DNA of 64,000 bases from Ferruginibacter sp. (GTDB lineage: Bacteria > Bacteroidota > Bacteroidia > Chitinophagales > Chitinophagaceae): NCBI GenBank assembly GCA_049840995.1, contig JASGIP010000002.1. The stretch is one strand, 5' to 3'. Shown here in pieces: positions 16,833 to 40,526 of this stretch; position 1 is the stretch's first letter, and the number at the start of each line of letters is the position of its first letter. The notes beneath the pieces were generated by a model. It was not told where the DNA came from. It did no database searches and saw only the letters and a program-made list of their open reading frames with translations. Made by a program: the position numbers and the translations under genes.

Positions 16833-16836
16833 CAGG

Positions 16837-19714: not shown

Positions 19715-19830
19715 GCCGCCTGCGGCGGCTTTGGAGGAACGTGGATTTTTAGGATGGTGATGATGTGTGAGGATCTATTTTCGCCACCGTCTTGGTACTG
19801 AGCGATGTGGAAGTATGACAAACGGCATAT
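19715..19830. repeat. Repeat family R1 copy (19715-19778, +) followed by an R2 long copy (19781-19830, -)
   Basis: AGCCGCC-TGC-GGCGGCT hairpin + GGATTTTTAGGATGGTGATGAT core; the reverse complement of 19781-19830 is ...GCCGTTTGTCATACTTCCACATCGCTCAGTACCAAGACGGTGGCGA. Confidence 0.8.
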
Positions 19831-19980
19831 GAAACTCCTTATTACTAAGGCTGCTTACAATTAAAGGAAGTTGACGTTTGTTGCAAAGAATATTGCAGAC
19901 GTAGGCACCTGCGGTGCCTGATATGTGAACGCGGATTTTTAGGATGGTGATGATGTGTTAGGATCTATTTATGTAAATTA
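19824..19980 (+). repeat. Left copy of a ~157-bp direct repeat (contains R1)
   Basis: Aligns without gaps to 20856-21012. Confidence 0.85.
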
Positions 19981-20018
19981 CGATAGAGTATGTAGCTTTT
20001 ACCGTAATCTTTAAAATT

Positions 20019-20837
20019 ATGCTATTACGATCTGTTATTTTATTATGCTTGTTAATAGAGAGCGCCGGTTTTGTTAATGGGGCAGGATGGTATGGCATAT
20101 GGAAATATGATGAAGATAAAAATATAACCCTGCAAAACATGTATGCTTACAATGATATTGATTTTGATATTCACAACATTTCTACAATAAAAAATGAAGG
20201 ATGTTGGTTAATTGGATTTGCTGAAGATAGTCTACAGCTAAAAAAAATGAATGTTGTAAGGGATTCTTTAAAGAACGGCCTGTTTACTTTTGAATTTCCT
20301 GGAATCAATCAGCTTAGCTGGTCTTTGTTTCAACGATTCCCTAACGGGAGGTGGTTAGAGTATATAAAAAAGAAAGACACCGCATTTACACAATTTGAAA
20401 TTCAGAAAGAAAATACGTTCGAGGGAAAAATATTTCAATATAACCGGAATAAATTAATGATCAGTTTTTATTCCTATAAAAGGAGTATGTTAAATGGCGC
20501 TTTTGCAACATATTTTGATAACGGGAGTTTATTGTCCTTAGGATCTTTTAAAGACGACCAATTTGACGAGCTCTGTATTTTCACAAAAGACCAAAAACTA
20601 AGCAGAGCCTATTCTTTTCTAAATAAATTTGAGAAGATATGGTCGAAAAATGGAAACTTGATGCAATTTGTTCAGATAAATACTTCCAGAGAACGGGATG
20701 GGATAGTAAAAGAATGGTATGAAAATGGAAAGCTAAAATACGAAGGGAGATACAGGAATGGTAAACAAGATGGCAAATGGATCTTTTATAAAAAAGATGG
20801 CAGTGTATCTAAAGTTGAGAATTTTCCTTCGCCATAG
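20019..20837 (+). CDS. Exported MORN-variant (YwqK-like) repeat protein
   Basis: Signal peptide; NGAFATYFDNG, DGIVKEWYENGKLKYEGRYRNGKQDGKWIFY repeats; AT-rich. Confidence 0.7.
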   Translation: MLLRSVILLCLLIESAGFVNGAGWYGIWKYDEDKNITLQNMYAYNDIDFDIHNISTIKNEGCWLIGFAEDSLQLKKMNVVRDSLKNGLFTFEFPGINQLSWSLFQRFPNGRWLEYIKKKDTAFTQFEIQKENTFEGKIFQYNRNKLMISFYSYKRSMLNGAFATYFDNGSLLSLGSFKDDQFDELCIFTKDQKLSRAYSFLNKFEKIWSKNGNLMQFVQINTSRERDGIVKEWYENGKLKYEGRYRNGKQDGKWIFYKKDGSVSKVENFPSP

Positions 20838-20855
20838 ATATTAATACCAGGTATA

Positions 20856-21060
20856 GGCGTATAGAACTCCCTATTACTAAGGCTGCTTAAAATTAAAGGA
20901 AGTTATCCTTTATTGCAAAGAATATTGCAGGCGTAGCCACCTGCGGTGCCTGGTGTGGGAACGCGGATTTTTAGGAGGGTAATGATGTGTTATGATCTAT
21001 CAGAGTAAATCATAATGATCTTTATGATCAGCGTTCCGGTGTGCATCGCCGAAGGCGATG
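20856..21060 (+). repeat. Right copy of the direct repeat; full R1 element ending in a CATCGCC-GAA-GGCGATG hairpin
   Basis: Matches 19824-19980; terminal hairpin at 21044-21060. Confidence 0.85.
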
Positions 21061-21172
21061 AAGCTTCATGGTCATTCCGGTTTTGACACACTCTGCTTCC
21101 TTTAATAAATGATAAAATAAACAAAAGAGGAGACCTCAACGATCTCCTCCTGTAATTTATATTATACACGGG

Positions 21173-22189
21173 TTAGTTGTCGCTATCGTCCTGCTCGGCA
21201 TTGGGAAAAAACTCCCAGCAGTCATCAAAGTATTGCGAGGATGAGGCGCCGGTGGTGAGGAATCCGCGGCCGCCCACTACAAAGCCAATAGCACCTTCAC
21301 GTAAGGTTCCTTCAAAACTTGTTTTTTGCGACCATTGGTCATTGACAAAATCATATTGCCAGGTAGTGCTGGGATTACCGCCACTGCCGGTAGCCAGGTA
21401 GGCCCGGTCGTTCATCACCAATACCGCGGCATTGCTGCGGGTGATATTGGTGCCGTAATCATCATCGTACTCTTCGTCATCATTGTAAGAAATGATCTTT
21501 CTCTTGGAAGCCCAGGAATCTGTGGAGGGATCATATATCCACAGGTCATCCACATAACTGCCGTTATTCGTTCCCGTTATAACATAGGCTTTGCTGTTGT
21601 ATACAAATGCAATGGCATCTCTGCGTTTGTCGCCGGTAAGACTTGCTTTTTGGGTCCAGCTGTCACTGGCAGGATCGTATTCCCAGAGATCTTTCAGGTA
21701 ATTGCCATTGTAGCCCGAGCAGATATAACCCTTGCCGCCAATGGAAAAGGCCACGGCGCTGGTGCGTATACCGCCATCAAAATCCTTCAGCTGCCGCCAG
21801 CTGTCTGTAATGCTGTTGTATTCCCACACATCGCCCAGGTAACGGATGCCGTCAAAACCGGTAGCCACATAGGCTTTATCGCCAATTGCAAATGCTACTG
21901 CACTGGTGCGGAGTGTACCGGGAAAAGCCGCTTTCCTGTACCAGGTACCGGTGGAGGGTTCAAACTGCCACACATCACTTAAGCGATCATTGCCATCGGT
22001 ACCGCCACCGATATAGAAATGATCATTGATGATAAAGCTGAAGGCATCGGTTCGTCCTACACCTTCCATTTCCGAACTCCTTTTCCAGTTACCAACAAGG
22101 TCATCGGAATCATCGGATTTTTTACAAGACACAAAGAACAATAGTGATACAGCGACCAATATCTGGATGGGGCTGATTTTTTTTTCCAT
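21173..22189 (-). CDS. Kelch repeat lipoprotein
   Basis: Lipobox FVSC; about six Kelch blades (AFAIGDKAYVATG...DVWEY...W). Confidence 0.88.
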   Translation of the reverse strand: MEKKISPIQILVAVSLLFFVSCKKSDDSDDLVGNWKRSSEMEGVGRTDAFSFIINDHFYIGGGTDGNDRLSDVWQFEPSTGTWYRKAAFPGTLRTSAVAFAIGDKAYVATGFDGIRYLGDVWEYNSITDSWRQLKDFDGGIRTSAVAFSIGGKGYICSGYNGNYLKDLWEYDPASDSWTQKASLTGDKRRDAIAFVYNSKAYVITGTNNGSYVDDLWIYDPSTDSWASKRKIISYNDDEEYDDDYGTNITRSNAAVLVMNDRAYLATGSGGNPSTTWQYDFVNDQWSQKTSFEGTLREGAIGFVVGGRGFLTTGASSSQYFDDCWEFFPNAEQDDSDN

Positions 22190-22638
22190 AATAAGGATGT
22201 TTAAAAGTTAGCAATGGATGCTGCAACGAAGCATTAAAATTGTGCCACGGCGTTTTAAAAAACTTGTTAAAATAGCCTGGCAGGACAGATCAGCGGCTGA
22301 ACAGGAAAAATGCTTGTGTCGGCTGAAACCCGCATGAATACTGGATTTTTTTAACTTTTTATCCGCAGCTTTTTTTATATGTTTGCTGTCTTGGTTTTTT
22401 GTATACAGTTATAACAGGCTGAAGGGTACATGAACGCTGCAACGAAGCGATGTATCCTGAAGCCTGTTTTTTTATTAGAGAGGTACTGCTAAATGGCTGC
22501 TATAACAGCATAGGGTGTACGTAAAATATAGTGGCCATGCACTGAGAATCAATATTGTGATAAGGCTGTAAGTAATACGGCTTTGCATAGAGTTAATTTG
22601 CTTTTCGCTTGCTGTTAGCCGTGAAGGAGGGTTCGGTG

Positions 22639-22704
22639 GGAGTCCTGTATGTGTCCCGTTAAGATCCTGTAAATGTCCGGTTAAAGTCCCGTAAATGTCC
22701 CGTG
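22639..22704. repeat. Six tandem degenerate 11-mers
   Basis: TCC recurs at 22643, 22654, 22665, 22676, 22687, 22698; consensus about AAwGTCCyGTw. Confidence 0.8.
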
Positions 22705-22873
22705 AGTGTTCTATGATAATCCTTTGTTAGTGATGGTAGTAGGTATAGTGGATGTATTCATTTTTATCGGGTATGTTTTAATGATGGCGGCATGCGCCGG
22801 TTGTTAATAATAAGACGGTGGCGGGGAGGAAGAGGGTTGCATTTTATTTGGATATTGTTTTATGATGGAGGGA

Positions 22874-22943
22874 TACGCCGTTTGTCGGATCCAAGACGGC
22901 GGCGAGTGGAGTACGCCGTTTGTTGAAACCAAGACGGCGGCGA
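22874..22943 (+). repeat. Two tandem R2 short REP-like hairpins
   Basis: TACGCCGTTTGT-n-CCAAGACGGCGGCGA at 22874 and 22912. Confidence 0.85.
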
Positions 22944-23035
22944 AGCATGAAGCGAAGTTGCTTATACACTAAAAAAATGCATACCGCAAACAATCGTGTT
23001 TTTGGTATGCATTGTATTAAATGTGAGATCCGTTT

Positions 23036-23548
23036 TTATTTAGTATACCTGGCTTTTGTGGTCATATCACCTCTTGGAGATGAAGATTGTGTTACAACAG
23101 ATAATTCACCTTCTTTGGTAAGTGTCCAGGTCTCTGTTGATTTGAATTCATTGGTTTGGCCATCTCTTTCAAAAAGCGTGCTGTTGCTGATGATGAGTGT
23201 TTGTCCATCATCCGACCATTTTGCGGTGGATTTTCTTTTAGAGCCACCAAAGCCTTCTGATTCGGTTACTTTACCATCAAAAGTCAATGTGATCGTTGTA
23301 GTCCTGGGATCGCCGCCATTAAAACCGGGTGTTGTTCTTGCTATTGTGATAGCATTGTCTTTTTGCTCTGCTTTTATTGCAGTGGCTGCAAAGTTTTTAA
23401 AATCTCCGAGCTCACTTTTTGATTCGTTCAATTTCCAGTCGCCGGAAAAATTTGCTTTGTCGGCATTCCATGAAAATGAGCACAGCATTACTGCCGGCAG
23501 TAATAATAGATAAAGCGCTTTTTTTGAAAAGGAAAGTTTCATATACAT
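23036..23548 (-). CDS. Exported hypothetical protein (lipocalin-like beta barrel)
   Basis: Signal peptide; NFSGDWKLNESKS start, beta-strand pattern. Confidence 0.65.
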   Translation of the reverse strand: MYMKLSFSKKALYLLLLPAVMLCSFSWNADKANFSGDWKLNESKSELGDFKNFAATAIKAEQKDNAITIARTTPGFNGGDPRTTTITLTFDGKVTESEGFGGSKRKSTAKWSDDGQTLIISNSTLFERDGQTNEFKSTETWTLTKEGELSVVTQSSSPRGDMTTKARYTK

Positions 23549-23795
23549 TAGTTTTTAGGGATTAAATGTAAATGAAAAAATTTGATTTTTATGAATCACT
23601 TGCAGGGCAAGAGGGAAATAAACAGGAGCGCTGTGCTTAAAATTATTTTTAAGTTATCATTCAACTTTGTTTTACCCTGGTTCAATAAAGAAAATGACCT
23701 TTTCGCAATGCGTTTTTACAATATTAAGAAGAAGATTGTTTTTCTTGAAAACCAAGTTGCAATTATTGGTGGTTGTATGGAATAGGTTGAGTGGG

Positions 23796-23926
23796 TACGC
23801 CGTTTGTTGTACTTCGACAAAGCTCAGTACCAAGACGGCGGCGAAAAAATTGGGTTGCAATTATTGGGAGGTTGTGTGGAATAGGATGAGTGTATACGCC
23901 GTTTGTTGAAACCAAGACGGCGGCGG
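23796..23926 (+). repeat. R2 long copy (23796-23844) and R2 short copy (23895-23926)
   Basis: The long form carries GTACTTCGACAAAGCTCAGTAC in the loop. Confidence 0.85.
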
Positions 23927-23943
23927 CGGACGGGGCAAAGAAA

Positions 23944-23966
23944 AAAAGCAGGGAAAACCTGCTTTT
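23944..23966 (-). terminator. Terminator of the peptide-export operon
   Basis: AAAAGCAGG-GAAAA-CCTGCTTTT with the T-run on the minus strand, downstream of the HlyD stop. Confidence 0.75.
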
Positions 23967-23982
23967 ACGTTTTACATAAGGA

Positions 23983-25317
23983 TCAATTTTTTATGGTATT
24001 GAGCATGCTGTTATAAAACCGCTGGAGCAGGCGCATATTTTGTGTTATGATCTCTGCCTGGGCTGCAAGGCCATCGGTAAACTGCACTTGTTTTTTATAA
24101 TTGGTCTGTAGCTTGTTTGGCAAGATCACTCTTGCAAGATAGCCGCTGTCGGTGGTGATATTGGAAATGAAATCGATCCTTCCCCGTACGTATCCATATT
24201 CCTGGAAAGGGTAGGCGGCAAATTTTAATTGTACTTCCTGGCCAATATGCACTTTTCCAAAATTGGTTTGAGGTATATGGATCTCTGCATAATAAGATGC
24301 GTTGCCGGGATTCACAAAACATATTACCCGGTTGTTTTCCAGCTGTTGGTTTTCTTGCAGGAAGCTGGCAAATGCTACCACGCCATCAACTGGTGCGGTT
24401 AAAATATATTTCTTTTTCCATTCTTCCAGTTCGCTTTTGAAAGTATTTAATGACTGGATGAAAATATTTTTTTGTTGTGCCACCTGGTTATCCAGTTCCA
24501 GTATCTCTTTTTGTTTTTCATTTTGTGTGTTCTCATTACTGAGCAGGTTGCTGCTGATCTGTGGCAGGGATATTTTTTTATTCAGCAGTTTACTTTCCTC
24601 GTTGCGGTAATCGAAAGCGGATATCACGCCGTCTGTTTTCAATTGTTTGTTGGCATCAAATGTTTGCTGTGTTAGATCAAGATCCTTCTCCAGGATTTCT
24701 TTTTGCTGTTCCAGTGCCGAATGCTGCCGCTGCAGGTTCATCATATCTTTCTGCAACATATTTTTTTTGTGCAGATAAAAACCGCTGCTGAGGTAATCGC
24801 AGAATTGGCGCAACTGCTGCATGAATGTTTGGTATTGCGGTTGTAATTCGCCCAATTGCTGGTGAATGTCGGTAAGATAGGGCAGCGCTTTTTCGGGTGC
24901 GTTGTTATCAAGATGATACCGAAGGTTGTCAATTTCCTGGTCCAGTGCGATCACTTCTTCAGGATCGGCAATACTTTCCATGAAGGCGAGTACTGTTCCT
25001 TTTTTGACGAATGTATTTTCTTTTACAAAGAGCCGGACCAGTTTTCCCGCTATGAGTGTTTTAACTTCTTTGGGCGCATTCAGGGAGGTGAGCTTTGCTT
25101 TTGTAAGAACAGTGTCCGGGTAGCTTATCAGCCAGCAGGCAGCGATCATCAGCAGCAATACCACCAGGAAAATACTGGTACCCCGCCTGGTAATAAAGCC
25201 CGGCCGGTTGGATATGATTTCCTGTATCAAGGAATCCTGCAGTTCTTCCTTTGTTGCTGTAATGCTTATTTGCTCACTGTTATGTGTAGACGTAATATGA
25301 TGCCTATTGACTGGCAT
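23983..25317 (-). CDS. HlyD family membrane fusion protein of a type I peptide exporter
   Basis: Single N-terminal TM, lipoyl half-motifs (VKKGTVLA; LTAPVDG), coiled coil, AYPFQEYG; start 25317 avoids a 71-nt overlap with the transporter. Confidence 0.88.
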   Translation of the reverse strand: MPVNRHHITSTHNSEQISITATKEELQDSLIQEIISNRPGFITRRGTSIFLVVLLLMIAACWLISYPDTVLTKAKLTSLNAPKEVKTLIAGKLVRLFVKENTFVKKGTVLAFMESIADPEEVIALDQEIDNLRYHLDNNAPEKALPYLTDIHQQLGELQPQYQTFMQQLRQFCDYLSSGFYLHKKNMLQKDMMNLQRQHSALEQQKEILEKDLDLTQQTFDANKQLKTDGVISAFDYRNEESKLLNKKISLPQISSNLLSNENTQNEKQKEILELDNQVAQQKNIFIQSLNTFKSELEEWKKKYILTAPVDGVVAFASFLQENQQLENNRVICFVNPGNASYYAEIHIPQTNFGKVHIGQEVQLKFAAYPFQEYGYVRGRIDFISNITTDSGYLARVILPNKLQTNYKKQVQFTDGLAAQAEIITQNMRLLQRFYNSMLNTIKN

Positions 25318-25327
25318 ATAGTTATTT

Positions 25328-27520
25328 TTAATTGCCCATTTCAAGTTGATTGCGCACGAGTTCAAAATAATTTTTCTTTCTCCTGGCCAATTGCTCATGC
25401 GTTCCTTCTTCTATGATCTCACCTTTGTCCAGCACCACGATCTTATCGGCGTTCTTTACCGTACTTAAGCGGTGCGCTACCACCACCACTGTTTTGCCTT
25501 TAAAGAATTCCTGCAATTGTTCCATAATGAGTTTTTCATTATTGGCATCCAGGGCGTTGGTTGCTTCATCAAAAAAAAGGTATTCGGGATTTTTGTATAC
25601 GGCACGGGCTATTAAAATGCGCTGTCTTTGCCCGGCACTGATGCCATTACCTTCGGCGCCTATTTTTGTCTGGAACCCCAGCGGCAACGATTCTATGAAG
25701 GAGAGTATATTAGCCACTTTGCAGGCATGCAGTAATTTTTTGTGATCGGTCACTTCGTCACTTACCGCAATGTTTTTGGCAATGGTATCGCTGAAGATAA
25801 AGCCATCCTGCATTACCGTACCGCAATTGTGCCGCCAGTATTTGGGGCTGATATGTTGCAGGCTGCTGTCGCCTATTTTTAAACTGCCCTTATAACCACT
25901 GTAAAATTGCAGCAGTAATTTTAACAGTGTTGTTTTACCACTGCCACTCATACCTACTATGGCGGTGACCTTGCCCTCGGGTATCACGAGATCTAAATTT
26001 TTTAATACCGGTTCATTACCTGCACCGGCGTAAGTGAAAGAAAGATCATTGATATGGATAGATCTGTCCTGTGGTAAATGCGTGATGAAAGTTTTTTCTG
26101 CCGGTTCTTCTTCTTCCAGTTGATGGATCTCATTGAGCCGCTCCAGGCTTATCCGTGCATCCTGTGCCTGTTGCACAAAACTGATCAATTGTTCTATAGG
26201 GCTGTTAAGCTGACCGATGATGGATTGTATAGCCATCATAGCGCCCAATGTCAACTGACCATCGAGCACTGCTTTGGCAACAAAAAATGTAATGAGCATG
26301 TTTTTTCCTTCATTGATAAATAATGCCCCGGCCTGCTGGTATTGACTTAGTGAAAGGTTTTTAAAGCTGAGATTAAATATGGATGCCTGTACATTTTCCC
26401 ATTCCCATCGACGCAGGTGCTCTGCATTGTTCAGTTTTATATCCTGCATGCCCTGTATCATCTGCATGGTAATACCATTTTCTTTTGCAGAGAGGTCGAA
26501 GGTTTTATAATTGAGGTTGCGGCGGTATTTTAAAAACAGTTTTATCCAGGAAAAATATATAATGCTGCCGATACAGAAAATGAAAAAGATTCTCCAGTCG
26601 TACATTAAAAGCACAATCGAGAACATCACGAGGTTGATGCAAGAAAACAATACGTTCAATGTTGACCCGGTGAGAAAGGATTCTATTTTACGGTGATCGC
26701 CTATGCGCTGTAAAATATCCCCGGTCATTTTGGTATCAAAAAATGAGAGTGGCAGGCGCATCAGTTTTATCCAGAAGAAAGATAATAAGGAAAGGTTGAT
26801 CCGGGTACTGATAAATAACAATATGCGGCTTCGGATAAATTCTACAACCGTTCTGCCAAAGAACAGCATGAACTGAGCAATCAAAACAATATAGATGAAT
26901 TGGAGGTTGTGCGTATTGATGCCGGTATCAACTATGCTTTGTGTAAGAAAGGGGAGTACCAATTGCAACAGGCTGCCGATGCCCAGGCCCATGAATACCT
27001 GCACAATGTATTTTTTATGCCGTGTAAGCTGCTGTAACAATATGCTCCATCCCAGTTTTTTATCTTTATCACCTTCCTGTTTATAGAATGCGGCTGTTGG
27101 TTCCAGCAACAGGGCAATGCCCGTTTGTTCGCTGTTGTTTTTATTACTGCTCCATTTTTTTAAAAAACTCTCTTTACTGCATTCGATGATCCCGGTGGCT
27201 GGGTCTGCTATAATAATTTTTTTAAGGGTTGAAGAGGGAGTTACCACCACGAAATGGTCCTGTCCCCAATGTACAATGCAGGGCAGCTTTGTTGCTTTAA
27301 TTAATTGCTCAAAATTCAATTTTACGCCTGCTGTATGGTATCCTATGTTCTCTGCCGCTTCGCTGATGCCTAATAGTGATACACCTTCTTTACTGAAACC
27401 GCTTTTTTGCCGCAGGTTGTCCAGCGAAAAATGCCGTCCGTAATATTTACTGATCATGCGCAGGCAGGATGGCCCGCAATCCATGGTATCGTGCTGCTTA
27501 TAAAATGGGAAGGTTGGCAT
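25328..27520 (-). CDS. Peptidase-containing ABC transporter (C39 + ABC; PCAT)
   Basis: QHDTMDCG catalytic Cys, HW...HF catalytic His region, TM domain, Walker A GMSGSGKT, ISAGQRQR signature, FFDEATNALD. Confidence 0.95.
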   Translation of the reverse strand: MPTFPFYKQHDTMDCGPSCLRMISKYYGRHFSLDNLRQKSGFSKEGVSLLGISEAAENIGYHTAGVKLNFEQLIKATKLPCIVHWGQDHFVVVTPSSTLKKIIIADPATGIIECSKESFLKKWSSNKNNSEQTGIALLLEPTAAFYKQEGDKDKKLGWSILLQQLTRHKKYIVQVFMGLGIGSLLQLVLPFLTQSIVDTGINTHNLQFIYIVLIAQFMLFFGRTVVEFIRSRILLFISTRINLSLLSFFWIKLMRLPLSFFDTKMTGDILQRIGDHRKIESFLTGSTLNVLFSCINLVMFSIVLLMYDWRIFFIFCIGSIIYFSWIKLFLKYRRNLNYKTFDLSAKENGITMQMIQGMQDIKLNNAEHLRRWEWENVQASIFNLSFKNLSLSQYQQAGALFINEGKNMLITFFVAKAVLDGQLTLGAMMAIQSIIGQLNSPIEQLISFVQQAQDARISLERLNEIHQLEEEEPAEKTFITHLPQDRSIHINDLSFTYAGAGNEPVLKNLDLVIPEGKVTAIVGMSGSGKTTLLKLLLQFYSGYKGSLKIGDSSLQHISPKYWRHNCGTVMQDGFIFSDTIAKNIAVSDEVTDHKKLLHACKVANILSFIESLPLGFQTKIGAEGNGISAGQRQRILIARAVYKNPEYLFFDEATNALDANNEKLIMEQLQEFFKGKTVVVVAHRLSTVKNADKIVVLDKGEIIEEGTHEQLARRKKNYFELVRNQLEMGN

Positions 27521-27550
27521 CGGGAAATGTTTCTTTGTTCAATAAGGATC

Positions 27551-27594: not shown

Positions 27595-27612
27595 GGCCTG
27601 CAATTGTTTTTC

Positions 27613-27861: not shown

Positions 27862-27971
27862 AGCTTACGACAGTTTTATAACATACAAAAGCTGCCAAAA
27901 ACTTTAATTTTTAATTTGCCTACTCTGTTATAAAGGTTTTCGGCTTCGCCTTCTTTTTGGCCAAAAGAATT

Positions 27972-32406: not shown

Positions 32407-32431
32407 TTTTAGGATGGCGGCGAAAGGAGCG

Positions 32432-32866: not shown

Positions 32867-32970
32867 AGTTTTATTTATAGCGTGTTTTTAGGGAAATGCT
32901 ATGTAAATTTATCCTATTTTTCTTTCCTTAACGGCTTCGATACAGGTATGAGGCTTTATAAAATCTTTCA

Positions 32971-33426: not shown

Positions 33427-33458
33427 TATTTTGGCTTAGCGAAAGTGCAAGGGGGGCA

Positions 33459-33646
33459 TACACCGTTTGCCATACTTCGACAAAGCTCAGTACCAAGACG
33501 GCGGCGAAGGGTTTAAGTCACCTGCGGTGCCTTATGTTAGAACGCGGATCTTTATGATGGTGATGATCTGTTATGATCTATCTGTGTAGATCTTATTGAT
33601 CTGTGTTCCGTTTTGTATCGCCGAAGGCGAAAGCTAAGACGGCGGC
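33459..33646 (+). repeat. Composite R2 long + R1 + R2 half
   Basis: R2 long 33459-33508; R1 from about 33517 with CACC-TGC-GGTG and TCGCC-GAA-GGCGA hairpins; AAGACGGCGGC tail. Confidence 0.85.
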
Positions 33647-33652
33647 CGGTTT

Positions 33653-34099
33653 TTAAAAACCATCTTTCACCAGTTCCCAGAATTCATCCAGCGCCATGAT
33701 ACGGGGTTTAAGAAAACTGATGATGCCCGGCCAGTCTGATTGGTTGAAGATATTTACCTGCTGCAGTTGCTGCGATATACTGCTAATGGTTTGATGACCG
33801 GTTACTGCCGCTTCATCCCACTGCCAGCTAAAGCCGGTGGTATTTTCCAACAATGTTTTGAGCGACAAGAACTGTGTATAATAATGCGCTCTTTCCTCTG
33901 GGTTGGCATGTGTTATTTCAATGGCAACAATTGCTTTTGTGTTATCGGCATCCATCCTGAACCGGATATTTTTGATGCCTGTTTTATAATTGATCCAGTT
34001 AACCGGCAATCCAGATGTACCGGGTACGGGTTTCATATATTGCCCGAAGCTGGTCCAGAATTGGGTTTTTAATTTTGATGCCTGTTCTTTGGAGTACAT
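33653..34099 (-). CDS. DUF4268 family protein
   Basis: MYSKEQA...FWTSFG, WINYKTGIK, FLKPRIMALDEFW pattern. Confidence 0.8.
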   Translation of the reverse strand: MYSKEQASKLKTQFWTSFGQYMKPVPGTSGLPVNWINYKTGIKNIRFRMDADNTKAIVAIEITHANPEERAHYYTQFLSLKTLLENTTGFSWQWDEAAVTGHQTISSISQQLQQVNIFNQSDWPGIISFLKPRIMALDEFWELVKDGF

Positions 34100-34121
34100 G
34101 GGTGTAAGATAGGGAAATCGG

Positions 34122-34268
34122 GTTAAGTCACCTGCGGTGCCTTGTATTGGAACGCGGATTTTTATGATGGTGATGATGTGTTATGATCTATCGGTGTACA
34201 GCATAATGATCTTATTGATCTGTGTTCCGTTTTTTATCGCCGAAGGCGAAAAGCCAAGACGGCGGCGA
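34122..34268 (+). repeat. Composite R1 + R2 half
   Basis: Near-identical to about 33513-33646. Confidence 0.85.
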
Positions 34269-34289
34269 AGGGCGAGTGCCTTTATCAGT

Positions 34290-34784: not shown

Positions 34785-34808
34785 TGGCGATACTAATGTT
34801 GTAAGAAG
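34783..34808 (-). other. Truncated attC-like half site
   Basis: ATTGGCGATACTAATGTTGTAAG, near-identical to 35366-35388. Confidence 0.6.
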
Positions 34809-34810
34809 GT

Positions 34811-35284
34811 TCAAACGCCGAACCATTTTTTTCTTTTATAGATTAACCCTTTCCTTTTTTTGTCATACACAAAGTAAATTGTCAAACCGCCTTCATTACC
34901 CATACTAATATTGTTGTTCTCGTATGTTGCAGAAAATGGGATTACTCCGCAAGAAAATTCCCCTTTCCTGAAGTCGAAAGGGGTAATGCCGACGATAATT
35001 GTGCTGCCATTATTTTCATTGATCGCTCTTATATATTGACTGTCTGTTTCCAAATATCTTATGTCAAAGCTAAGGATCTTTTTCGGCCAACTGTCGCCAA
35101 TAAAGTGGTCATCTCTAACATAAACGACTTTAGACTTAGTAGAATCCAAAGATTTGCAATATTCTTTTAAGGAAAACAAATAAACGTTATTAAGATTATT
35201 TAAACCGTCGGTATCTAAAACTGTCTGTCCAATAGAGACATTTAAATTAAATGCTAAAAAAAGTAAGAAGAATGTGATTTTCAT
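34811..35284 (-). CDS. Exported hypothetical protein (cassette-array gene)
   Basis: Signal peptide; AT-rich; framed by GTTGTAAG (34798) and GCTTACA (35315). Confidence 0.6.
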   Translation of the reverse strand: MKITFFLLFLAFNLNVSIGQTVLDTDGLNNLNNVYLFSLKEYCKSLDSTKSKVVYVRDDHFIGDSWPKKILSFDIRYLETDSQYIRAINENNGSTIIVGITPFDFRKGEFSCGVIPFSATYENNNISMGNEGGLTIYFVYDKKRKGLIYKRKKWFGV

Positions 35285-35312
35285 TTTTAAATGATATGGT
35301 GTTGATTAAAAC

Positions 35313-35391
35313 TTGCTTACAGTAGGCATTGCCGCAGCAGATTGCTTCAATGTCTTGCCCCTCTTATTGGCAATACCAATGTTGTAAGCAA
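35313..35391 (-). other. attC-like recombination site (most complete copy)
   Basis: TTGCTTACA(35313-21)/TGTAAGCAA(35383-91) outer arms and GGCATTGCC/GGCAATACC inner arms. Confidence 0.65.
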
Positions 35392-35392
35392 T

Positions 35393-36025
35393 TTATCTGA
35401 TCACGGTTCCTTTATTTACTTTGCTGATGTTTATAATATTTCCTGTAGTAGCGTTTATTTCAATGACTTCAAAGTCTCCCATGTCTTTGCCGGTAGCATT
35501 TAAAACAACGGTCAAGGTATGCGAAGCTGTATAAATATACTGTTTTGATTTTTCGTCATAAGAAAGGATTGGAATAGATACCTTGTAACTGTTAGGCTTA
35601 CTATTTGATTGTACGATCGCCGAAGCTGAGTCAACAGAAATAAATTCGGAAGGCTTGTTTTCAACGATGAATTTTGGAATGAATTCAAAATTTAAACTGT
35701 CAATTAATTGGAAGTCTTTATCAACTATTAACCAAAGCCCCCCTCTGACCCCTTCTATTTTGGGATAATCAAAATGATACAAAAAGTTCAATGTCACGAA
35801 CGACTTTGGAAGTCGTTTTTTTTGTAAAAATCTCCACGTCCGTTGTTTTCCTTTCCTGCCTGCATAACTGTAATAAGAACCTCCGGAAACACTAAAATAT
35901 TGAAATAATCTGTCCCCAATTTGCGATCTTAAAATGCTGTCTGCAATCACGACTGCTTTCTTTGTCCTTTGAGCATAAGTAGTAAAGCAAAATAATAAGA
36001 GGCCAGGTAAAATAAATTTTCTCAT
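35393..36025 (-). CDS. Exported hypothetical protein (cassette-array gene)
   Basis: MRKFILPGLLLFCFTTYA signal peptide at 36025; C-terminal IEINATTGNII PepSY-like motif. Confidence 0.55.
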   Translation of the reverse strand: MRKFILPGLLLFCFTTYAQRTKKAVVIADSILRSQIGDRLFQYFSVSGGSYYSYAGRKGKQRTWRFLQKKRLPKSFVTLNFLYHFDYPKIEGVRGGLWLIVDKDFQLIDSLNFEFIPKFIVENKPSEFISVDSASAIVQSNSKPNSYKVSIPILSYDEKSKQYIYTASHTLTVVLNATGKDMGDFEVIEINATTGNIINISKVNKGTVIR

Positions 36026-36094
36026 AATGTTCAAATGATGCAATTACTGGAGGATTTACACAAATTGCGAATGCAATGCCAGGCACAGTTATTT

Positions 36095-36550
36095 TTACCA
36101 ACCGGGACCAAGTTTTTCTATTGGTTCGGGTTCAATTACTCTCATATCATTTAGCAACATTGGGTCTTCGCCTTTCTTGATCCTTTTATGCATGTCCAAT
36201 AAAGTTGTCAACAGTAATTCAATCCCTTCTTTTTTATTGTCATCCTCGATCCTTAGTTTGGTCAAAGCATGTTGTGCCGCTTGCCAGAAGTAGGCACGAT
36301 TATCAGGAGAAAAAGACCTTAGGTCAAAGTTGAACATTATGTTTTCCTCTTTTCTAATAAACCCACCATACCCATTGTACTCATCTCCGATTTCTTCACG
36401 ATAAACAAATCTCTCCAGGTATTCATAGAAAGTTTGCGCTCCGTTAATTTCTTTTAGTTCGTTTGTGATTAGTTCTAACATATATGCCATGCCTGCCCAT
36501 CGTCTTGCAAAGCCTCTGCCGTCTTCAAGTGTCCAAAATGCTGATGCCAT
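36095..36550 (-). CDS. Cytoplasmic hypothetical protein (cassette-array gene)
   Basis: 151-aa ORF, no signal peptide, framed by degenerate cores GCCAGGCAC (36078) and GAGCCTAAA (36563). Confidence 0.6.
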   Translation of the reverse strand: MASAFWTLEDGRGFARRWAGMAYMLELITNELKEINGAQTFYEYLERFVYREEIGDEYNGYGGFIRKEENIMFNFDLRSFSPDNRAYFWQAAQHALTKLRIEDDNKKEGIELLLTTLLDMHKRIKKGEDPMLLNDMRVIEPEPIEKLGPGW

Positions 36551-36562
36551 TATCTTATAATT

Positions 36563-36834
36563 GAGCCTAAAGTTGAGGACCCGCTGCTGTGCTGGTATTT
36601 TATAACGTCCAGCCCGGAACCACTACCTGCTTTTTTATAAAGTTAAATATTAACAACGAAAGTGGGGTTTTAAGGTTAAGTATATGAAGATGGCGGAGGA
36701 GAAATTGGCCGCATTACTTTTGATCTGGTAAAGTTTTAATGATGGTGGCATTCGCCGTTTGTCGAAGCCAAGACGGCGGCAAAAAGACCAGACGGCGGCG
36801 AATTCTCACTGAGGCAAAATCCCATGTTATGTGC
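36563..36834 (-). other. Long degenerate attC-like spacer interrupted by R2 repeats
   Basis: GAGCCTAAA at 36563, GCCCGGAACCACT internal motif, R2 at 36752-36802, intact GTTATGTGC at 36826. Confidence 0.5.
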
Positions 36835-37351
36835 CGGCAGTCGAATTGTTTTTTGAATAGTAGGCCGGTTTAAGTAATTCTATGATTTGGATATTTCTTA
36901 AACGATTTTCCTTGTCAGAATAAAATTTTGAGTCTTTATTTACTTTGAGCCATGCAGACTTAAACGATGATAAAAATTTTTCCCGATCTTGCTTGGCCAC
37001 AAAGAAATAAACAGTGTCCACTTTAAATAAATAAAAAATAGATTTCTTTTTCCTGCAATTAATAAGCGTAATATAATTTTTATTGTTATACCATTTTCCG
37101 CTATCAAAAAAACTACTGCCAAAGCAACCAGAGTGATATCTTCTAAATTTCATATTTGAGTCGAAGTAATAACTACCACTTAAAACATCTGCAAATACAA
37201 ACGAAAATTTTCCAATTGCATCTCGGGATAAAATTGAATCGCAAAACCTTGGCTGACTTAAAGATGAGTTAAAGGTGTCTTTTAAAGGATTAATTTGACA
37301 TTTGGCCAAAAAGGAAAGAAGAATGAATAATATGGTAGGTACACTTTTCAT
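36827..37351 (-). CDS. Exported hypothetical protein (cassette-array gene)
   Basis: MKSVPTILFILLSFLAKC start at 37351; the stop codon TAA lies inside the GCACATAAC core. Confidence 0.6.
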   Translation of the reverse strand: MKSVPTILFILLSFLAKCQINPLKDTFNSSLSQPRFCDSILSRDAIGKFSFVFADVLSGSYYFDSNMKFRRYHSGCFGSSFFDSGKWYNNKNYITLINCRKKKSIFYLFKVDTVYFFVAKQDREKFLSSFKSAWLKVNKDSKFYSDKENRLRNIQIIELLKPAYYSKNNSTAGT

Positions 37352-37374
37352 CTTAGAAAATGTTTCGAACGCTG

Positions 37375-37568
37375 GCACATAAAGTTAAACCATTGGCGAT
37401 GTGGCGGTATTCTATGTTCCGTGTGCCCGGTTCCGCTGCTGATTAAAGATACAAAAGCTGATTGTAATTCTGTTGCTTGGCGTTATTCATCTGCCGAAGC
37501 CGAATAGCGAACCAAAGTTGATGCTTACAACGTCAAGCACAAATTGCAGCAAACCTAATTTTGGTTGC
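37375..37568 (-). other. Long attC-like spacer
   Basis: GCACATAAA at 37375, GCCCGGTTCCGCTGCTG internal motif, ATTGCAGCAAACCTAAT-TTTGGTTGC at 37543-37568. Confidence 0.55.
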
Positions 37569-38169
37569 TGCTCTTCATTTTCAACAAAGTAACTTTCTTA
37601 ATGTATGTATCGTCAAATGTCTTTAGTACAACGTGATACCAGTTTTGTTCGGGTGTGTCAACTGTGAAGATTTCATTTTTCTTATGATTTCTAACAGCTT
37701 GTTCAAAATTTTTAACCATCATATTCTCTGTAAACCATTTCGTGTCACCTGTAAAATTACCATCCATATTATACTGCTGAACAAGGTCAAAAAAGCTTGT
37801 ACCAGTTTTAAATTTTGAAATTATTTCCTGCCTTAAGCTGTCAAGTTGCAGTTTGGAAAATTTGTCACCATTTAAATAAATATAGTTTACTCTAAATGAT
37901 AAAGTAGAGTCTATACTTAAAATTTTAAAAGCGATATTATCTATGTAAAAAGTAAAGCCAATTTTTTTGTTATAAAGGGGCATAAGAATTTCTGTCGTGT
38001 CATTACTTGATTCTATTGTAAAAAGTTTACTGCCTGTTTGGGGATTTTTTGATATAAATGCTTCTGCTTCAGAAACTGTTTTAATCTTTGAAATATCATT
38101 TCCTTTCGATTGTCCAAAAGTGAAAGAGTAAAATAAAAATAGTATTGTTGTAATAATAAGTCTTGTCAT
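37555..38169 (-). CDS. Exported PpiC/parvulin-type peptidyl-prolyl isomerase-like protein (cassette-array gene)
   Basis: Signal peptide; SFFDLVQQY..GDTKWF...MVKNFEQAV...WYHVV rotamase pattern. Confidence 0.7.
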   Translation of the reverse strand: MTRLIITTILFLFYSFTFGQSKGNDISKIKTVSEAEAFISKNPQTGSKLFTIESSNDTTEILMPLYNKKIGFTFYIDNIAFKILSIDSTLSFRVNYIYLNGDKFSKLQLDSLRQEIISKFKTGTSFFDLVQQYNMDGNFTGDTKWFTENMMVKNFEQAVRNHKKNEIFTVDTPEQNWYHVVLKTFDDTYIKKVTLLKMKSSNQN

Positions 38170-38479
38170 TTTATGTTGCTATAGGTTTTGTGTCAGAGTA
38201 TCAGCCAACACCAGGATTGCTGTTATTACACGCAATTCATCAAACCAAATATACGCTGGTAATCAACAAGCTAGTAGTATATATTTTAAATTGTTTATAG
38301 CAGCAATGGTATTTACGATTACTTACCAATGCTTAATTGTATAAAATCGTAATGGGGAAGCTTTAGCTTTATCAGGTGCGCCAAAGTAATCATTTTATTT
38401 ACAAAATAAAATACGGGAAACCCGCAATTTTGCGGCTTAAGCCAGCATCAGGCAGCCCTGCATTGAAGGTTGCGATGTG

Positions 38480-38528
38480 TACGCCGTTGGTCGTACTTTG
38501 ACGAGGCTCAGCACCCAGGCGGTGGCGA
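38480..38528 (+). repeat. R2 long copy (degenerate)
   Basis: TACGCCGTTGGTCGTACTTTGACGAGGCTCAGCACCCAGGCGGTGGCGA. Confidence 0.7.
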
Positions 38529-38560
38529 GGAATAATATTTTCCCTATGTTTTCTATGTGC

Positions 38561-38773
38561 CTATGTGGGTTTAATAGTTTGCTCCGTTGCTGCAGGTGCT
38601 TTTTCCTTTTGCAGTTTCAGCAACCGTAACGGTATCCACACCGTTTTCTTTTCGTTCTTTTTATTCAATCCTTCGCAAAGCGCTTCGCCCTTTACTTCAT
38701 CTACCTGGATGATCTTTTTGTCATTTAATTTTTTAAATGCCACAGCATCGCCAACCTTGAATTTTCCTTCCAT
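38561..38773 (-). CDS. Small hypothetical protein (DUF2158/YodC-like)
   Basis: MEGKFKVGDAV...ALCEG pattern; start 38773 because the longer ORF is only read-through of a DNA repeat. Confidence 0.45.
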   Translation of the reverse strand: MEGKFKVGDAVAFKKLNDKKIIQVDEVKGEALCEGLNKKNEKKTVWIPLRLLKLQKEKAPAATEQTIKPT

Positions 38774-38811
38774 GTTTTTTTGATTACAATATAGTGAATT
38801 AAATGTTGCCG

Positions 38812-38940
38812 TTTGATGGTTCAGACCGCTCCCGCCTGGGGCGAGACAGGTTAGGGCCCCGACCGGGAGGAGATGGTTCAGGCCGCAGGAGCGTCCCGAC
38901 CCACGATGATGGTTCAGGCCGCAGGAGCGGTCCCGACCCA
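38812..38940. repeat. GC-rich REP-like repeat, three units
   Basis: GATGGTTCAG(A/G)CCGC at 38815, 38872, 38908; the last two continue AGGAGCG(G)TCCCGACCCA. Confidence 0.75.
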
Positions 38941-38941
38941 A

Positions 38942-40243
38942 TTACTGCTTTCCATCCAGCAGTACTTCGGCATTTACTGTGGCCAGTTTATTCACACCTT
39001 CTTTTGTAATGAATTTACAATGCTGCAGGGTAATGTTTTTAGCAAAGAAGATTCCGAAAGGATTGTCGGCGGTGATGTTTACATTCTCTAAAGAAATATT
39101 GGCAATGGCAGCTTCGGGCAGTCCCCAGATAAGGCCGGCACGCCTGCCGGCTTCGGCAGTGGCGGTAATGTTCTCAAATTTTATGTTGCTGTAAATGGGT
39201 GTTAAGTCGGTTACCGGTGCAGCTGGATAAGTCGATGCAATTTCGGGCGTAAGTTTTTGCAGGTTCCTGTATTGTTTATCGGGCGCCATATAAGTGGCAT
39301 ACATTAAAATGGGAATGCCCACGTTCGTCATGGTAAGATTGCGGTAGGTGAGGTTCTGCACCTGGCCGCCCCGGTCACGGTCGGATTTGATGCGGATGCC
39401 GCATTCGGTATTGGTAAAGCTGCAGTCTTCTATTAAAAAATTCGATACGCCTCCTTTGGTATAACTGCCAATAGATAAACCATGTCCGTAACCATATTTG
39501 CAGTGCATGATGTGTACATTAAAAGTGCCGCCGCCACAGGTAAAATTATCATCGCCGGTACTGATGTCGCAGTTCTTGATCAGGATATCTTTACCGGAAA
39601 CATCGCAGGCATCGGTATTGTGGCTGGGATTCACCGGATCGGTGGAGGCAGGCGCACGGACTATTACACCACTTACCGTAACATTGTTCGACCTGCTGAT
39701 GGCAATATGAAACATCGGTGAGTTCATCAAGGTTACATTCTCGATCAACAGTTTTTCACAATCCTTCAGCGAGATCATGCGGGGGCGTTTGGCATCTTTT
39801 TCTTTCGCGAAGGGCCACCAGGGCGATCCTTGCCCGTCGATGGTGCCTTTACCGGTAATGGCCACATCGTGCAGTTTGGTGCCGCTGATAAAATCGGTAC
39901 CCGTTGTGGTGCCACCGGGATATTTATCGATCGGTAATAATTTTAGCAGTGCACCGGAATCCAGTTGAAAATTGAGGTTGTTCACAAACTGCAAAGGGCC
40001 GCAGAGAAAAACGCCTGCAGGCACCACCACTTTTCCGCCACCGGCGGTATTGGCTGCATCAATTGCTTTTTGAATAGCACTGGTATTGTCTGTTTGTGCA
40101 TCGGCTGCTGCACCAAAATCTTTTATGTTGAATGTTTTATTGGGAATTACTGGGAGCGCCGGTGTTACCAATGCTGTCTGTGCCTGTAGTTGTTGTAATG
40201 CGAGGAAACTGATCATTGCGATAACGCTGCAACGTATTTTCAT
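38942..40243 (-). CDS. Glycoside hydrolase family 28 (polygalacturonase-like)
   Basis: Signal peptide; NTD, GDD, GHG and RIKS catalytic motifs. Confidence 0.92.
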   Translation of the reverse strand: MKIRCSVIAMISFLALQQLQAQTALVTPALPVIPNKTFNIKDFGAAADAQTDNTSAIQKAIDAANTAGGGKVVVPAGVFLCGPLQFVNNLNFQLDSGALLKLLPIDKYPGGTTTGTDFISGTKLHDVAITGKGTIDGQGSPWWPFAKEKDAKRPRMISLKDCEKLLIENVTLMNSPMFHIAISRSNNVTVSGVIVRAPASTDPVNPSHNTDACDVSGKDILIKNCDISTGDDNFTCGGGTFNVHIMHCKYGYGHGLSIGSYTKGGVSNFLIEDCSFTNTECGIRIKSDRDRGGQVQNLTYRNLTMTNVGIPILMYATYMAPDKQYRNLQKLTPEIASTYPAAPVTDLTPIYSNIKFENITATAEAGRRAGLIWGLPEAAIANISLENVNITADNPFGIFFAKNITLQHCKFITKEGVNKLATVNAEVLLDGKQ

Positions 40244-40344
40244 GCTGTTTGAATTTTAGCTGGTACAATGTAAACATTAATTGAAGGACTGACTTTGATT
40301 GGGTGCTAAAGTTTGTTAATGGGGAGTTATTGGAGATTGGAATA

Positions 40345-40526
40345 AGTCGCCTGCGGCGTCTTTTATGGGAACGCAGATTTTTATGATGGTGATGATATGT
40401 TATGATCTATCTGTGTAGATCATGATCATCTTAATGATCCGTGTTTCGTTATTTATCATCGATGATGATAGGAAATATGTCGTTTGTTGTACTTCGACGA
40501 AGCTCAGTGTCAAGACGGCGGCGGAG
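40345..40526 (+). repeat. Composite R1 + R2 long
   Basis: CGCC-TGC-GGCG; GAACGCAGATTTTTATGATGGTGATGAT; ATCATC-GAT-GATGAT hairpin; R2 long at 40476-40526. Confidence 0.8.

What the first reader, a model, noticed from the sequence alone, without database searches (positions are those of the whole stretch)
19715..40469. Repeat R1: element bounded by GNA-triloop hairpins on opposite strands, with compensatory changes
Seen: six same-strand copies (about 19715, 19903, 20936, 33517, 34127, 40345) share GAACG(C/T)(G/A)GAT(T/C)TTTA(G/T)GA(T/G)GGT(G/A)ATGAT. The left hairpin covaries (AGCCGCC-TGC-GGCGGCT versus AGGCACC-TGC-GGTGCCT); its loop reads GCA on the minus strand. The right hairpin, present in four copies, also covaries (CATCGCC-GAA-GGCGATG at 21044 versus ATCATC-GAT-GATGAT at 40455). 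Established: c-GNA-g mini-hairpins are exceptionally stable in ssDNA, and HUH/RAYT-type enzymes recognise ssDNA hairpins. Inference: a non-autonomous element selected for DNA-level structure. The core recalls tracts I associate with GxxExxY-family genes (unverified).
Basis: partly seen in the sequence, partly recalled or inferred. Interest (0 to 1): 0.62.

Follow-up and report, generated by a model that had tools for sequence, protein, structure and literature searches.

The report
Capped gene-less hairpin cassettes (R1)
R1 is a real family of small inserted DNA palindromes: gene-less copies of a widespread, barely described cassette whose full form carries a small GxxExxY nuclease gene, and in this Ferruginibacter genome each end also has a tiny GC hairpin of fixed orientation.

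Summary
Six same-strand copies match the core (0 expected). The small hairpins exist and show compensatory Watson-Crick changes. R1 is larger than described: cap hairpin, spacer, arm, loop, inverted arm, spacer, inverted cap. The genome holds about 37 arms at about 21 sites, mostly between convergent genes.

The arm is three or four 9-nt words ending in GAT (GGAACGCGGAT TTTTATGAT GGTGATGAT). It occurs in Chitinophagaceae, Cytophagales, Saprospiraceae-like and Ignavibacteriota genomes. There the same inverted arms directly bracket GxxExxY (PD-(D/E)XK) genes in at least seven loci. All R1-armed proteins form one clade. In a protein-first sample, seven of eight clade members have arms headed GGAACRCNGAT or a one-base variant.

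Orthologous junctions are empty in relatives. R1 is therefore a gene-less, MITE-like member of this cassette family, whose closest described relatives are the ORF-bearing intervening sequences of 23S rRNA.

The caps are usually absent elsewhere, are expanded in this genome (25 against 0-4), cap a second arm family too, and always read T-G/T-C on the arm strand.

The RAYT/HUH idea is not supported. Each RAYT-like gene has its own different REP. How the element moves, and whether the caps act in DNA or RNA, is unresolved.

The parts
19714..19779 (+). E1, a half element. Left cap AGCCGCC-TGC-GGCGGCT (19714-19730), spacer, left arm from GGAACGTGGAT (19736). It is cut off at 19780 by a copy of the unrelated R2 hairpin repeat (reverse strand).
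19903..19970 (+). E2, a half element. Left cap AGGCACC-TGC-GGTGCCT (19903-19919) and left arm from 19926. It is followed by the MORN-repeat gene 20019-20837. It lies inside a direct repeat of about 140 nt that recurs at about 20862-21002.
20935..21060 (+). E3, a full element. Cap (loop TGC, 20942-20944), left arm from 20958, right arm ending ATCAGCGTTCC at 21037, cap CATCGCC-GAA-GGCGATG (21044-21060). It lies between convergent genes (MORN + and Kelch -).
33516..33630 (+). E4, a full element. Cap AGTCACC-TGC-GGTGCCT (33516-33532), left arm from 33539, right arm ending ATCTGTGTTCC at 33609, cap TCGCC-GAA-GGCGA (33618-33630). It lies 23 nt (cap end 33630 to gene end 33653) from the 3' end of the DUF4268 gene (33653-34099, minus strand).
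34126..34249 (+). E5, a full element. Cap (34126-34142), left arm from 34149, right arm ending at 34228, cap (34237-34249). It lies about 25 nt upstream of the DUF4268 start codon. It is absent from the same leader in two relatives.
40345..40470 (+). E6, a full element. Cap AGTCGCC-TGC-GGCGTCT (40345-40361), left arm from 40368, right arm ending ATCCGTGTTTC at 40447, cap TATCATC-GAT-GATGATA (40454-40470). The right cap has two fully compensated pair changes relative to E4 and E5.

Best explanation
R1 is the gene-less (MITE-like) form of a hairpin cassette whose full form carries a GxxExxY PD-(D/E)XK nuclease gene between two inverted arms.

Shown:
- Anatomy. Each arm is a head GGAACRCRGAT followed by two or three further 9-nt words ending in GAT. 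Two inverted arms enclose a short loop.
- In this Ferruginibacter genome nearly every arm carries an outer cap 5-9 nt away. The cap is a 5-9-bp GC-rich hairpin whose triloop reads TGC or TTC on the arm strand, so GCA or GAA on the other strand.
- Kinship with GxxExxY cassettes.
- R1 is absent from the same junctions in relatives.
- There is no target-site duplication.
- The window copies arose by local copying.
- The caps are oriented and covary.

Inferred:
- The arms are protein-recognition sites (iteron-like), most likely for the clade-A GxxExxY nuclease. This genome encodes one such gene (contig C3:33112-33513), whose arms share the head GGAACACGGAT.
- That nuclease, or host recombination and repair acting on the extruded hairpin, copies gene-less units in trans.
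- The caps form stable C(GNA)G DNA mini-hairpins, or short inward-facing transcription stops, that mark the ends of the unit.
- Copies persist mainly at gene 3' ends, where they do no harm.
For: Anatomy and copy number.

The arm occurs across Chitinophagaceae, Cytophagales, Saprospiraceae-like and Ignavibacteriota genomes. More than 119 stretches match a 28-nt pattern for which I estimate about 0.1 chance matches. Arm pairs mostly span 54-224 nt.

Thirteen GxxExxY ORFs lie in those loci. At least seven are bracketed directly by inverted R1 arms: L179, L130, L182, L170, L087, L089 and L123. Family TIGR04256 is confirmed.

In the protein tree all R1-armed proteins form one clade, separate from proteins with other arms, with support 1.0.

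In a protein-first sample of eight clade-A genes, six have arms headed GGAACRCNGAT, one GAAACACGGAT, and one (G017) CCCACGGAT.

Across 77 palindromes the conserved positions are GAACnCnGAT nnTnAnGAT nnTnAnGAT. The variable positions are barely matched between the two arms (23.4 against 22.7 of 28) and show no G-T bias. This is conservation of sequence, not merely of pairing.

Filled against empty sites:
- 3-HAO/ACMSD junction: R1 plus GxxExxY in L087, four empty junctions, other cassettes elsewhere.
- Aminotransferase/amidase junction: capped R1 in this genome, absent in G115 and G011.
- DUF4268 leader: E5 only in this genome.

There is no target-site duplication of 3 nt or more.

Caps:
- Covariation.
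- Orientation 18:1 for R1 and 24:1 for R3, against 23:31 at random positions.
- 25 capped heads here against 0-4 in 150 genus genomes, with controls at 0.
- Only 12 of 209 arms elsewhere are capped.

Placement: 11 of 19 R1 intergenic regions are convergent, against a 12.8% background.
Against:
- The genome has no GxxExxY gene with true R1 arms, only one sharing the 11-12-nt head.
- R1-rich relatives G009 and G022 show no clade-A gene, although they are only 80% and 71% complete.
- Similar cassettes carry a four-helix-bundle protein that is not a nuclease. The enclosed protein may therefore be cargo or an arm binder rather than the mobilising enzyme.
- The gene may have entered pre-existing palindromes rather than the reverse.
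- The empty sites are in species too diverged for base-exact boundaries.
- The match between protein clade and arm type could reflect shared descent alone.
Confidence: 0.68

Rival explanations
1. R1 is a REP/REPIN family mobilised by a RAYT (HUH Y1 transposase) that recognises the small ssDNA hairpins.
For: Inverted doublets with small GC hairpins resemble REPINs/BIMEs. The genome encodes four Y1_Tnp ORFs. The caps keep their structure through compensatory change. Four of 11 other genomes with a capped arm have an orthologue (63% identity or more) of the best RAYT, against roughly 1 in 9 of the rest.
Against: No RAYT gene is flanked by R1, and each has its own different REP. Orthologues of the best RAYT are flanked in 12 genomes by a conserved REP, AGCCCTGAAAGGGCG, unlike the variable-stem caps. 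G148 (87% orthologue) has one capped arm and G140 (80%) has none. Most R1 copies elsewhere have no hairpins at all. Cap stems vary far more than REPs of one family do.
Confidence: 0.07
2. R1 is mainly a host-useful RNA-level element. It would act as a portable bidirectional terminator or insulator, or as an mRNA 3'-end stabiliser or RNase III site, kept by selection at gene ends. This does not exclude a mobile origin.
For: There is strong enrichment between convergent genes and near stop codons. Caps are followed by T/G-rich spacers and face inward from both sides. In other genomes the palindrome lies between an A-rich left flank and a T-rich right flank. The related 23S rRNA intervening sequences are RNase III substrates (PMC4990558).
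Against: The caps fail a simple hairpin-plus-T-tract scan. Flanking genes such as pnp and the Kelch gene have their own canonical terminators. There is no G-U tolerance in caps or arms. Copies also sit upstream of start codons and inside operon junctions. There is no Rfam match.
Confidence: 0.15
3. R1 is an ordinary MITE derived from a DDE-transposase insertion sequence.
For: It has terminal inverted repeats, small size, many copies and gene-less forms.
Against: No target-site duplication of 3 nt or more appears at any of six tested end offsets in 81 elements. Among 56 arm pairs, the four long ones enclose a GxxExxY gene, a PIN toxin-antitoxin pair plus a small ORF, an amidohydrolase, or nothing coding. 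None encloses a transposase.
Confidence: 0.03
4. The six copies are only local segmental duplications with no family behind them.
For: The window copies are each other's closest relatives and share orientation. A direct repeat of about 140 nt around the MORN gene includes one copy.
Against: About 37 arms lie at about 21 sites on six contigs. The arm occurs in more than 119 stretches across the genome collection.
Confidence: 0.02

Closest known systems
ORF-bearing intervening sequences (IVS) of 23S rRNA (Coxiella burnetii, Leptospira; S23p four-helix-bundle ORF; PMC4990558)
   Same: Both have terminal inverted repeats that form a long stem around a small ORF. Both have gene-less hairpin versions. 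Origin and mobility are unknown for both, and both are regarded as selfish insertions. In this genome S23p-family genes (PF05635, 11 copies) sit in the same kind of word-repeat arms.
   Different: R1 lies between protein genes, not in rRNA. Its partner protein is a GxxExxY PD-(D/E)XK nuclease, not S23p. RNase III processing is untested here. No outer GC caps are mentioned in the passages of the Coxiella IVS paper that I read.
REP / BIME / REPIN elements with RAYT transposases
   Same: Both are short extragenic palindromes, often in inverted pairs, enriched at gene 3' ends. Structure is kept by compensatory change. A single-copy protein gene is flanked by the same repeats.
   Different: The partner is not a Y1/HUH enzyme. 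The RAYT genes of this genome have other REPs. The arms are periodic 9-nt words rather than one imperfect palindrome. Cap stems are not conserved in sequence.
MITEs and ERIC/Correia-type imperfect palindromes
   Same: Both are gene-less palindromic repeats of 80-130 nt, found in intergenic DNA and derived from longer gene-bearing units.
   Different: R1 has no target-site duplication and no DDE transposase partner.
C(GNA)G DNA mini-hairpins such as d(GCGAAGC) (established biophysics, cited from my own knowledge)
   Same: The cap loops read GCA or GAA, closed by C-G, on the strand opposite the arm in about 34 of 36 caps.
   Different: Those are model oligonucleotides and phage origin motifs. 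Nothing here shows that the caps fold in vivo.

Membership tests
GxxExxY / four-helix-bundle hairpin cassettes (IVS-like elements) | The same inverted arms bracket a GxxExxY (TIGR04256) gene in related copies | tested here: met
   At least seven of 13 GxxExxY ORFs in R1-bearing loci are bracketed directly by R1 arms.
GxxExxY / four-helix-bundle hairpin cassettes (IVS-like elements) | Arms are built of short periodic words | tested here: met
   The words have a 9-nt period and end in GAT. The conserved pattern is GAACnCnGAT nnTnAnGAT nnTnAnGAT in 77 palindromes.
GxxExxY / four-helix-bundle hairpin cassettes (IVS-like elements) | Arm type goes with protein clade | tested here: met
   R1-armed proteins form one clade (support 1.0). 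In a protein-first sample of eight, six have arms headed GGAACRCNGAT, one GAAACACGGAT, and one CCCACGGAT.
GxxExxY / four-helix-bundle hairpin cassettes (IVS-like elements) | Insertion polymorphism at orthologous junctions | tested here: met
   The junctions tested are 3-HAO/ACMSD, aminotransferase/amidase and the DUF4268 leader. Boundaries are not base-exact.
GxxExxY / four-helix-bundle hairpin cassettes (IVS-like elements) | Excision of the stem by RNase III, as in rRNA intervening sequences | not testable with these tools
REP/REPIN with RAYT | A RAYT (Y1_Tnp) gene flanked by the repeat | tested here: not met
   There are four Y1_Tnp ORFs. Each has another REP and none has R1.
REP/REPIN with RAYT | The repeat count tracks presence of the cognate RAYT across genomes | tested here: not met
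   G148 (87% orthologue) has one capped arm and G140 has none. G175, G218 and G153 have capped arms without an orthologue.
MITE of a DDE transposon | Target-site duplication | tested here: not met
   No excess of direct repeats of 3 nt or more appears at offsets 0-5 in 81 elements.
MITE of a DDE transposon | An autonomous copy with a transposase between the same ends | tested here: not met
   Long arm pairs enclose GxxExxY, a toxin-antitoxin pair or unrelated genes only.
Intrinsic terminator | A GC-rich hairpin followed by a T tract | tested here: inconclusive
   The window caps are not picked up by the consensus scan. Spacers are T/G-rich, and some R3 caps are true terminators with a run of eight T.
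Any Rfam RNA family | A match to a covariance model | tested here: not met
   There is no hit on R1 at gathering threshold over the whole window, nor at E up to 10 over 19600-21200.

The most novel reading that the evidence does not exclude
GxxExxY nucleases are the mobilising enzymes of a previously undescribed class of very small mobile elements (arm, 125-aa PD-(D/E)XK nuclease, arm). The elements insert without target duplication at gene ends, through hairpin or cruciform DNA. In this lineage the class has acquired oriented C(GNA)G mini-hairpin caps that mark the ends in single-stranded DNA. This let gene-less R1 and R3 units multiply.
Probability: 0.2. Interest if true: 0.8.

Novelty: new variant of a known kind. 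Interest (0 to 1): 0.55.

Why it matters
GxxExxY (PF13366/TIGR04256) is a large family of unknown function. My full-text searches found only a handful of passing mentions of it. Tying a defined repeat (R1, with 9-nt GAT words) to one clade of the family gives a concrete candidate substrate for a simple binding or cleavage assay.

It also links three things: unexplained short intergenic palindromes of Bacteroidota, the old puzzle of rRNA intervening sequences, and small selfish cassettes that settle in operon junctions.

The oriented, Watson-Crick-only covarying caps are shared by two arm families in one genome. I did not see this feature described in the literature I searched or in earlier notes of this scan. 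It could tell whether these elements act as DNA or as RNA.

Tried and rejected
- DUF4268 as the R1 enzyme. The gene is flanked by two full copies in the window. It is rejected because it is present in 14 genus genomes, most of which had no R1 match, and is absent from the R1-rich G009, G022 and G028.
- RAYT link: rejected.
- Rfam: only RNase P, a tRNA and two DUF805b motifs in the window, none on R1.
- Caps as pre-existing host terminators used as targets. This is unlikely. Free caps are rare (25 of the 65 such hairpins genome-wide sit next to R1 arms and about 13 more next to R3 or other word-repeat arms, read by eye). Both ends are capped at fixed spacing. Syntenic relatives lack them.
- Target-site duplication: none.
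- Vectors: no match in plasmids, phages or viral contigs.
- RNA-level wobble bias in arms or caps: none.
- Fold search of the nuclease model: only generic PD-(D/E)XK hits with E of 2e-3 or worse (3IJM, Cas4, lambda exonuclease, Hjc). No specific subfamily could be assigned.
- The closest sampled relative (G148) is only about 74% identical in DNA and not syntenic, so base-exact empty sites could not be obtained.
- One script call returned nothing and was repeated.
Full report
**Observation**

Direct reading confirms the left hairpins with TGC loops in all six copies. It also confirms the right hairpins with GAA or GAT loops in four copies, at the stated coordinates.

The right cap of the copy at 40345 differs from its sisters by two fully compensated pair changes (ATCGCC/GGCGAT to ATCATC/GATGAT). 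The rest of that element is about 90% identical to them.

**True anatomy**

Each full copy is a 115-126-nt palindrome: cap hairpin, 5-9-nt spacer, left arm (GGAACGCGGATTTTTATGATGGTGATGAT...), loop, diverged inverted right arm (...ATCTGTGTTCC), spacer, inverted cap. The copies at 19715 and 19903 are left halves only. The first is cut off by an unrelated hairpin repeat, R2.

Genome-wide there are about 37 arms at about 21 sites on six contigs. The six window copies are a local subfamily. They are 86% identical to each other and 72% identical to the rest, and each has its best match inside the window.

**Placement**

I built an approximate gene map from long ORFs. On it, 11 of 19 R1-bearing intergenic regions lie between convergent genes, against a background of 12.8%. 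Only one lies in a divergent region. My binomial estimate for this is about 4e-6. Several caps abut or even supply the stop codon of the upstream gene.

**What it is not**

No Rfam family matches R1.

The genome has four Y1-transposase (RAYT-like) ORFs. Each is flanked by its own different REP family and none by R1. Orthologues of the best-scoring RAYT are flanked in a dozen other genomes by a conserved REP, AGCCCTGAAAGGGCG, and its inverse. Presence of that RAYT does not track the number of capped arms.

The DUF4268 gene sits between two full copies in the window. It is not the partner, because its distribution across relatives is unrelated to that of R1.

There is no target-site duplication of 3 nt or more at any plausible end offset in 81 elements. 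No transposase lies between arm pairs.

**What it is**

The hosts include Ferruginibacter, Segetibacter, Pinibacter, Sediminibacterium, Chitinophaga, Spirosoma, Fibrella, Saprospiraceae-like genomes and Melioribacter/Ignavibacteriales. A few contigs come from MAGs labelled otherwise.

The window's genus is the one that holds a MAG labelled Ferruginibacter. The evidence is that contig G009:C5 and record CAYOLS010000005.1 have the same length and carry R1 at the same position.

In those genomes R1 is usually a plain palindrome of 54-224 nt, or a single arm, without caps. Sometimes it forms tandem arrays. One has a 111-nt period with 13 or more copies in an Ignavibacteriales MAG. Another has a 140-nt period.

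I built an HMM from this genome's four GxxExxY proteins and searched those loci. It found 13 GxxExxY ORFs. At least seven are bracketed directly, within a few bases of start and stop, by inverted R1 arms. NCBIfam confirms TIGR04256.

In a tree, all R1-armed proteins form one clade together with this genome's gene at C3:33112-33513. They are separated with support 1.0 from GxxExxY proteins that sit in other arms.

That sample was chosen by arm, so I also sampled by protein. Of eight clade-A genes found in relatives by protein search, six have arms headed GGAACRCNGAT, one GAAACACGGAT, and one CCCACGGAT. Each head is followed by about 9-nt words ending in GAT.

Across 77 distinct palindromes the conserved positions are GAACnCnGAT nnTnAnGAT nnTnAnGAT. 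The variable positions are hardly better matched between the two arms of one element than between shuffled pairs (23.4 against 22.7 of 28). Mismatches show no G-T bias. The arms are therefore conserved as sequence, like arrays of protein-binding sites, and not merely as a stem.

**Insertion polymorphism**

The junction between the 3-hydroxyanthranilate dioxygenase gene and the next gene was compared across Chitinophagaceae:
- It is 0-25 nt long in four genomes.
- It holds gene-less palindromes of other arm families in three genomes.
- It holds four-helix-bundle genes in three different arm families, including in this genome.
- It holds an R1-armed GxxExxY gene in a Ferruginibacter MAG.

A capped R1 fills the aminotransferase/omega-amidase junction of this genome. 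The two syntenic relatives have neither R1 nor caps there.

The leader of the DUF4268 gene (CAT-GGGYGYAAGATA...) is conserved in three genomes. Only this genome has E5, caps included, about 25 nt upstream of the start codon.

These species are too diverged for base-exact boundaries.

**The caps**

This part is specific to the finding. On 36 caps of this genome:
- 84.7% of cells pair, against 65.8% in shuffles and 37-53% in slid controls.
- There are 67 double-change cells, against 25 expected.
- G-U pairs are nearly absent.

The loop reads TGC or TTC on the strand where the arm reads GGAAC. The opposite strand therefore reads GCA or GAA, closed by C-G.

A perfect triloop hairpin of 5 bp or more lies within 32 nt upstream of 44% of R1 arms. 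The same holds for 37.5% of arms of a second, more abundant family, R3 (GCCACGGAT TACACGGAT TTTCACGGAT; 88 arms). The figure for random positions is 2.9%. Loop orientation is 18:1 for R1 and 24:1 for R3, against 23:31 at random.

Capped R1 heads number 25 in this genome. They number 0-4 in each of 150 other genomes of the genus, and reversed-pattern controls give 0 everywhere. Elsewhere only 12 of 209 arms have any GC hairpin nearby.

The caps are not canonical terminators by a simple scan. Neighbouring genes have their own terminators.

The caps are therefore an oriented module that travels with the arms. They are shared by two arm families and expanded in this lineage. Watson-Crick-only covariation and GNA loops favour a DNA-level role, or templated correction within the palindrome. 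An RNA role is not excluded.

**Mechanism: what is shown and what is inferred**

Shown:
- the anatomy;
- kinship with GxxExxY cassettes;
- absence from orthologous sites in relatives;
- lack of target-site duplication;
- local amplification;
- cap orientation and covariation.

Inferred:
- The arms are recognition arrays for the clade-A nuclease. A model with pLDDT 88 has the PD-(D/E)XK fold, but fold matches are only generic.
- Gene-less units are copied in trans or by host repair acting on extruded hairpins.
- The caps fold as DNA mini-hairpins.

Similar cassettes carry a non-nuclease four-helix-bundle protein. This cautions that the enclosed protein may be cargo or an arm binder rather than a transposase.

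**Comparison and novelty**

The closest described system is the ORF-bearing intervening sequence of 23S rRNA. It has a 28-bp terminal stem around an S23p ORF, is excised by RNase III, and its mobility is unknown (PMC4990558). REP/REPIN-RAYT systems and MITEs are analogues that fail membership tests.

Full-text searches found almost nothing on GxxExxY beyond a table entry listing its function as unknown.

Earlier notes of this scan describe the same cassette class in more than 100 genomes. They agree with what I derived independently. None that I saw mentions caps.

I rate this a new variant of a known kind, of moderate interest.

Noticed in passing
window 19780-19820 (reverse), about 33458-33510, 34250-34275 and 40480-40530; about 30 copies genome-wide: R2 is a separate REP-like hairpin family, TACGCCGTTTGTC-loop-CAAGACGGCGGCG, with a short or a long loop. 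It often lies next to R1, and one copy truncates E1.
   Followed up: partly
window 19830-19970 and 20862-21002, around the gene 20019-20837: A MORN-repeat gene is sandwiched by a direct repeat of about 140 nt. The repeat includes an R1 cap and left arm. This suggests duplication or recombination between R1 copies.
   Followed up: partly
window 33516-34249: A DUF4268 gene (33653-34099, minus strand) lies between two full R1 copies in the same orientation. Relatives have the gene without R1.
   Followed up: yes
G000 genome-wide, for example C3:549719-549830, C3:915229-915320, C8:732780-733130: R3 is a second and more abundant palindrome family, with arms GCCACGGATTACACGGATTTTCACGGAT (88 arms). 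Many copies carry the same oriented TGC/TTC caps. Some form tandem arrays.
   Followed up: partly
G000 C6:450250-451750, C3:72300-73250, C8:219150-219460, C7:201880-202480: There are four RAYT-like (Y1_Tnp) genes. Each sits among its own REP family: GTACCCGGAAGCTCCAGCTTCCGG, CCGAAAATTCTTTTCGG, a roughly 100-nt repeat, and AGCCCTGAAAGGGCG.
   Followed up: partly
L084:6570-8000 (Ignavibacteriales MAG); L118:3310-3810; L164:540-900: Whole R1 palindromes occur as tandem arrays. The first has a 111-nt period with 13 or more copies and the second a 140-nt period with four copies.
   Followed up: no
L134:5863-7131 (Bacteroidia MAG): Inverted R1 arms enclose three ORFs, including a PIN-domain toxin with a small upstream partner. 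A GxxExxY gene is not among them.
   Followed up: no
L196-L205 and L087 (3-HAO/ACMSD junction in Chitinophagaceae): One operon junction is empty in some genera. In others it is occupied by at least six different arm families, with a four-helix-bundle gene, a GxxExxY gene or no gene in the loop.
   Followed up: partly
window 16836-17225, 27917-27953 (-), 43467-43501 (+), 45428-45499 (-): The window also holds an RNase P RNA, two DUF805b RNA motifs and a tRNA. None is related to R1.
   Followed up: no
G000 caps, for example C3:301198-301220: Sixteen of 36 caps begin with TAA or TAG. In at least one case this triplet is the stop codon of the upstream gene.
   Followed up: no
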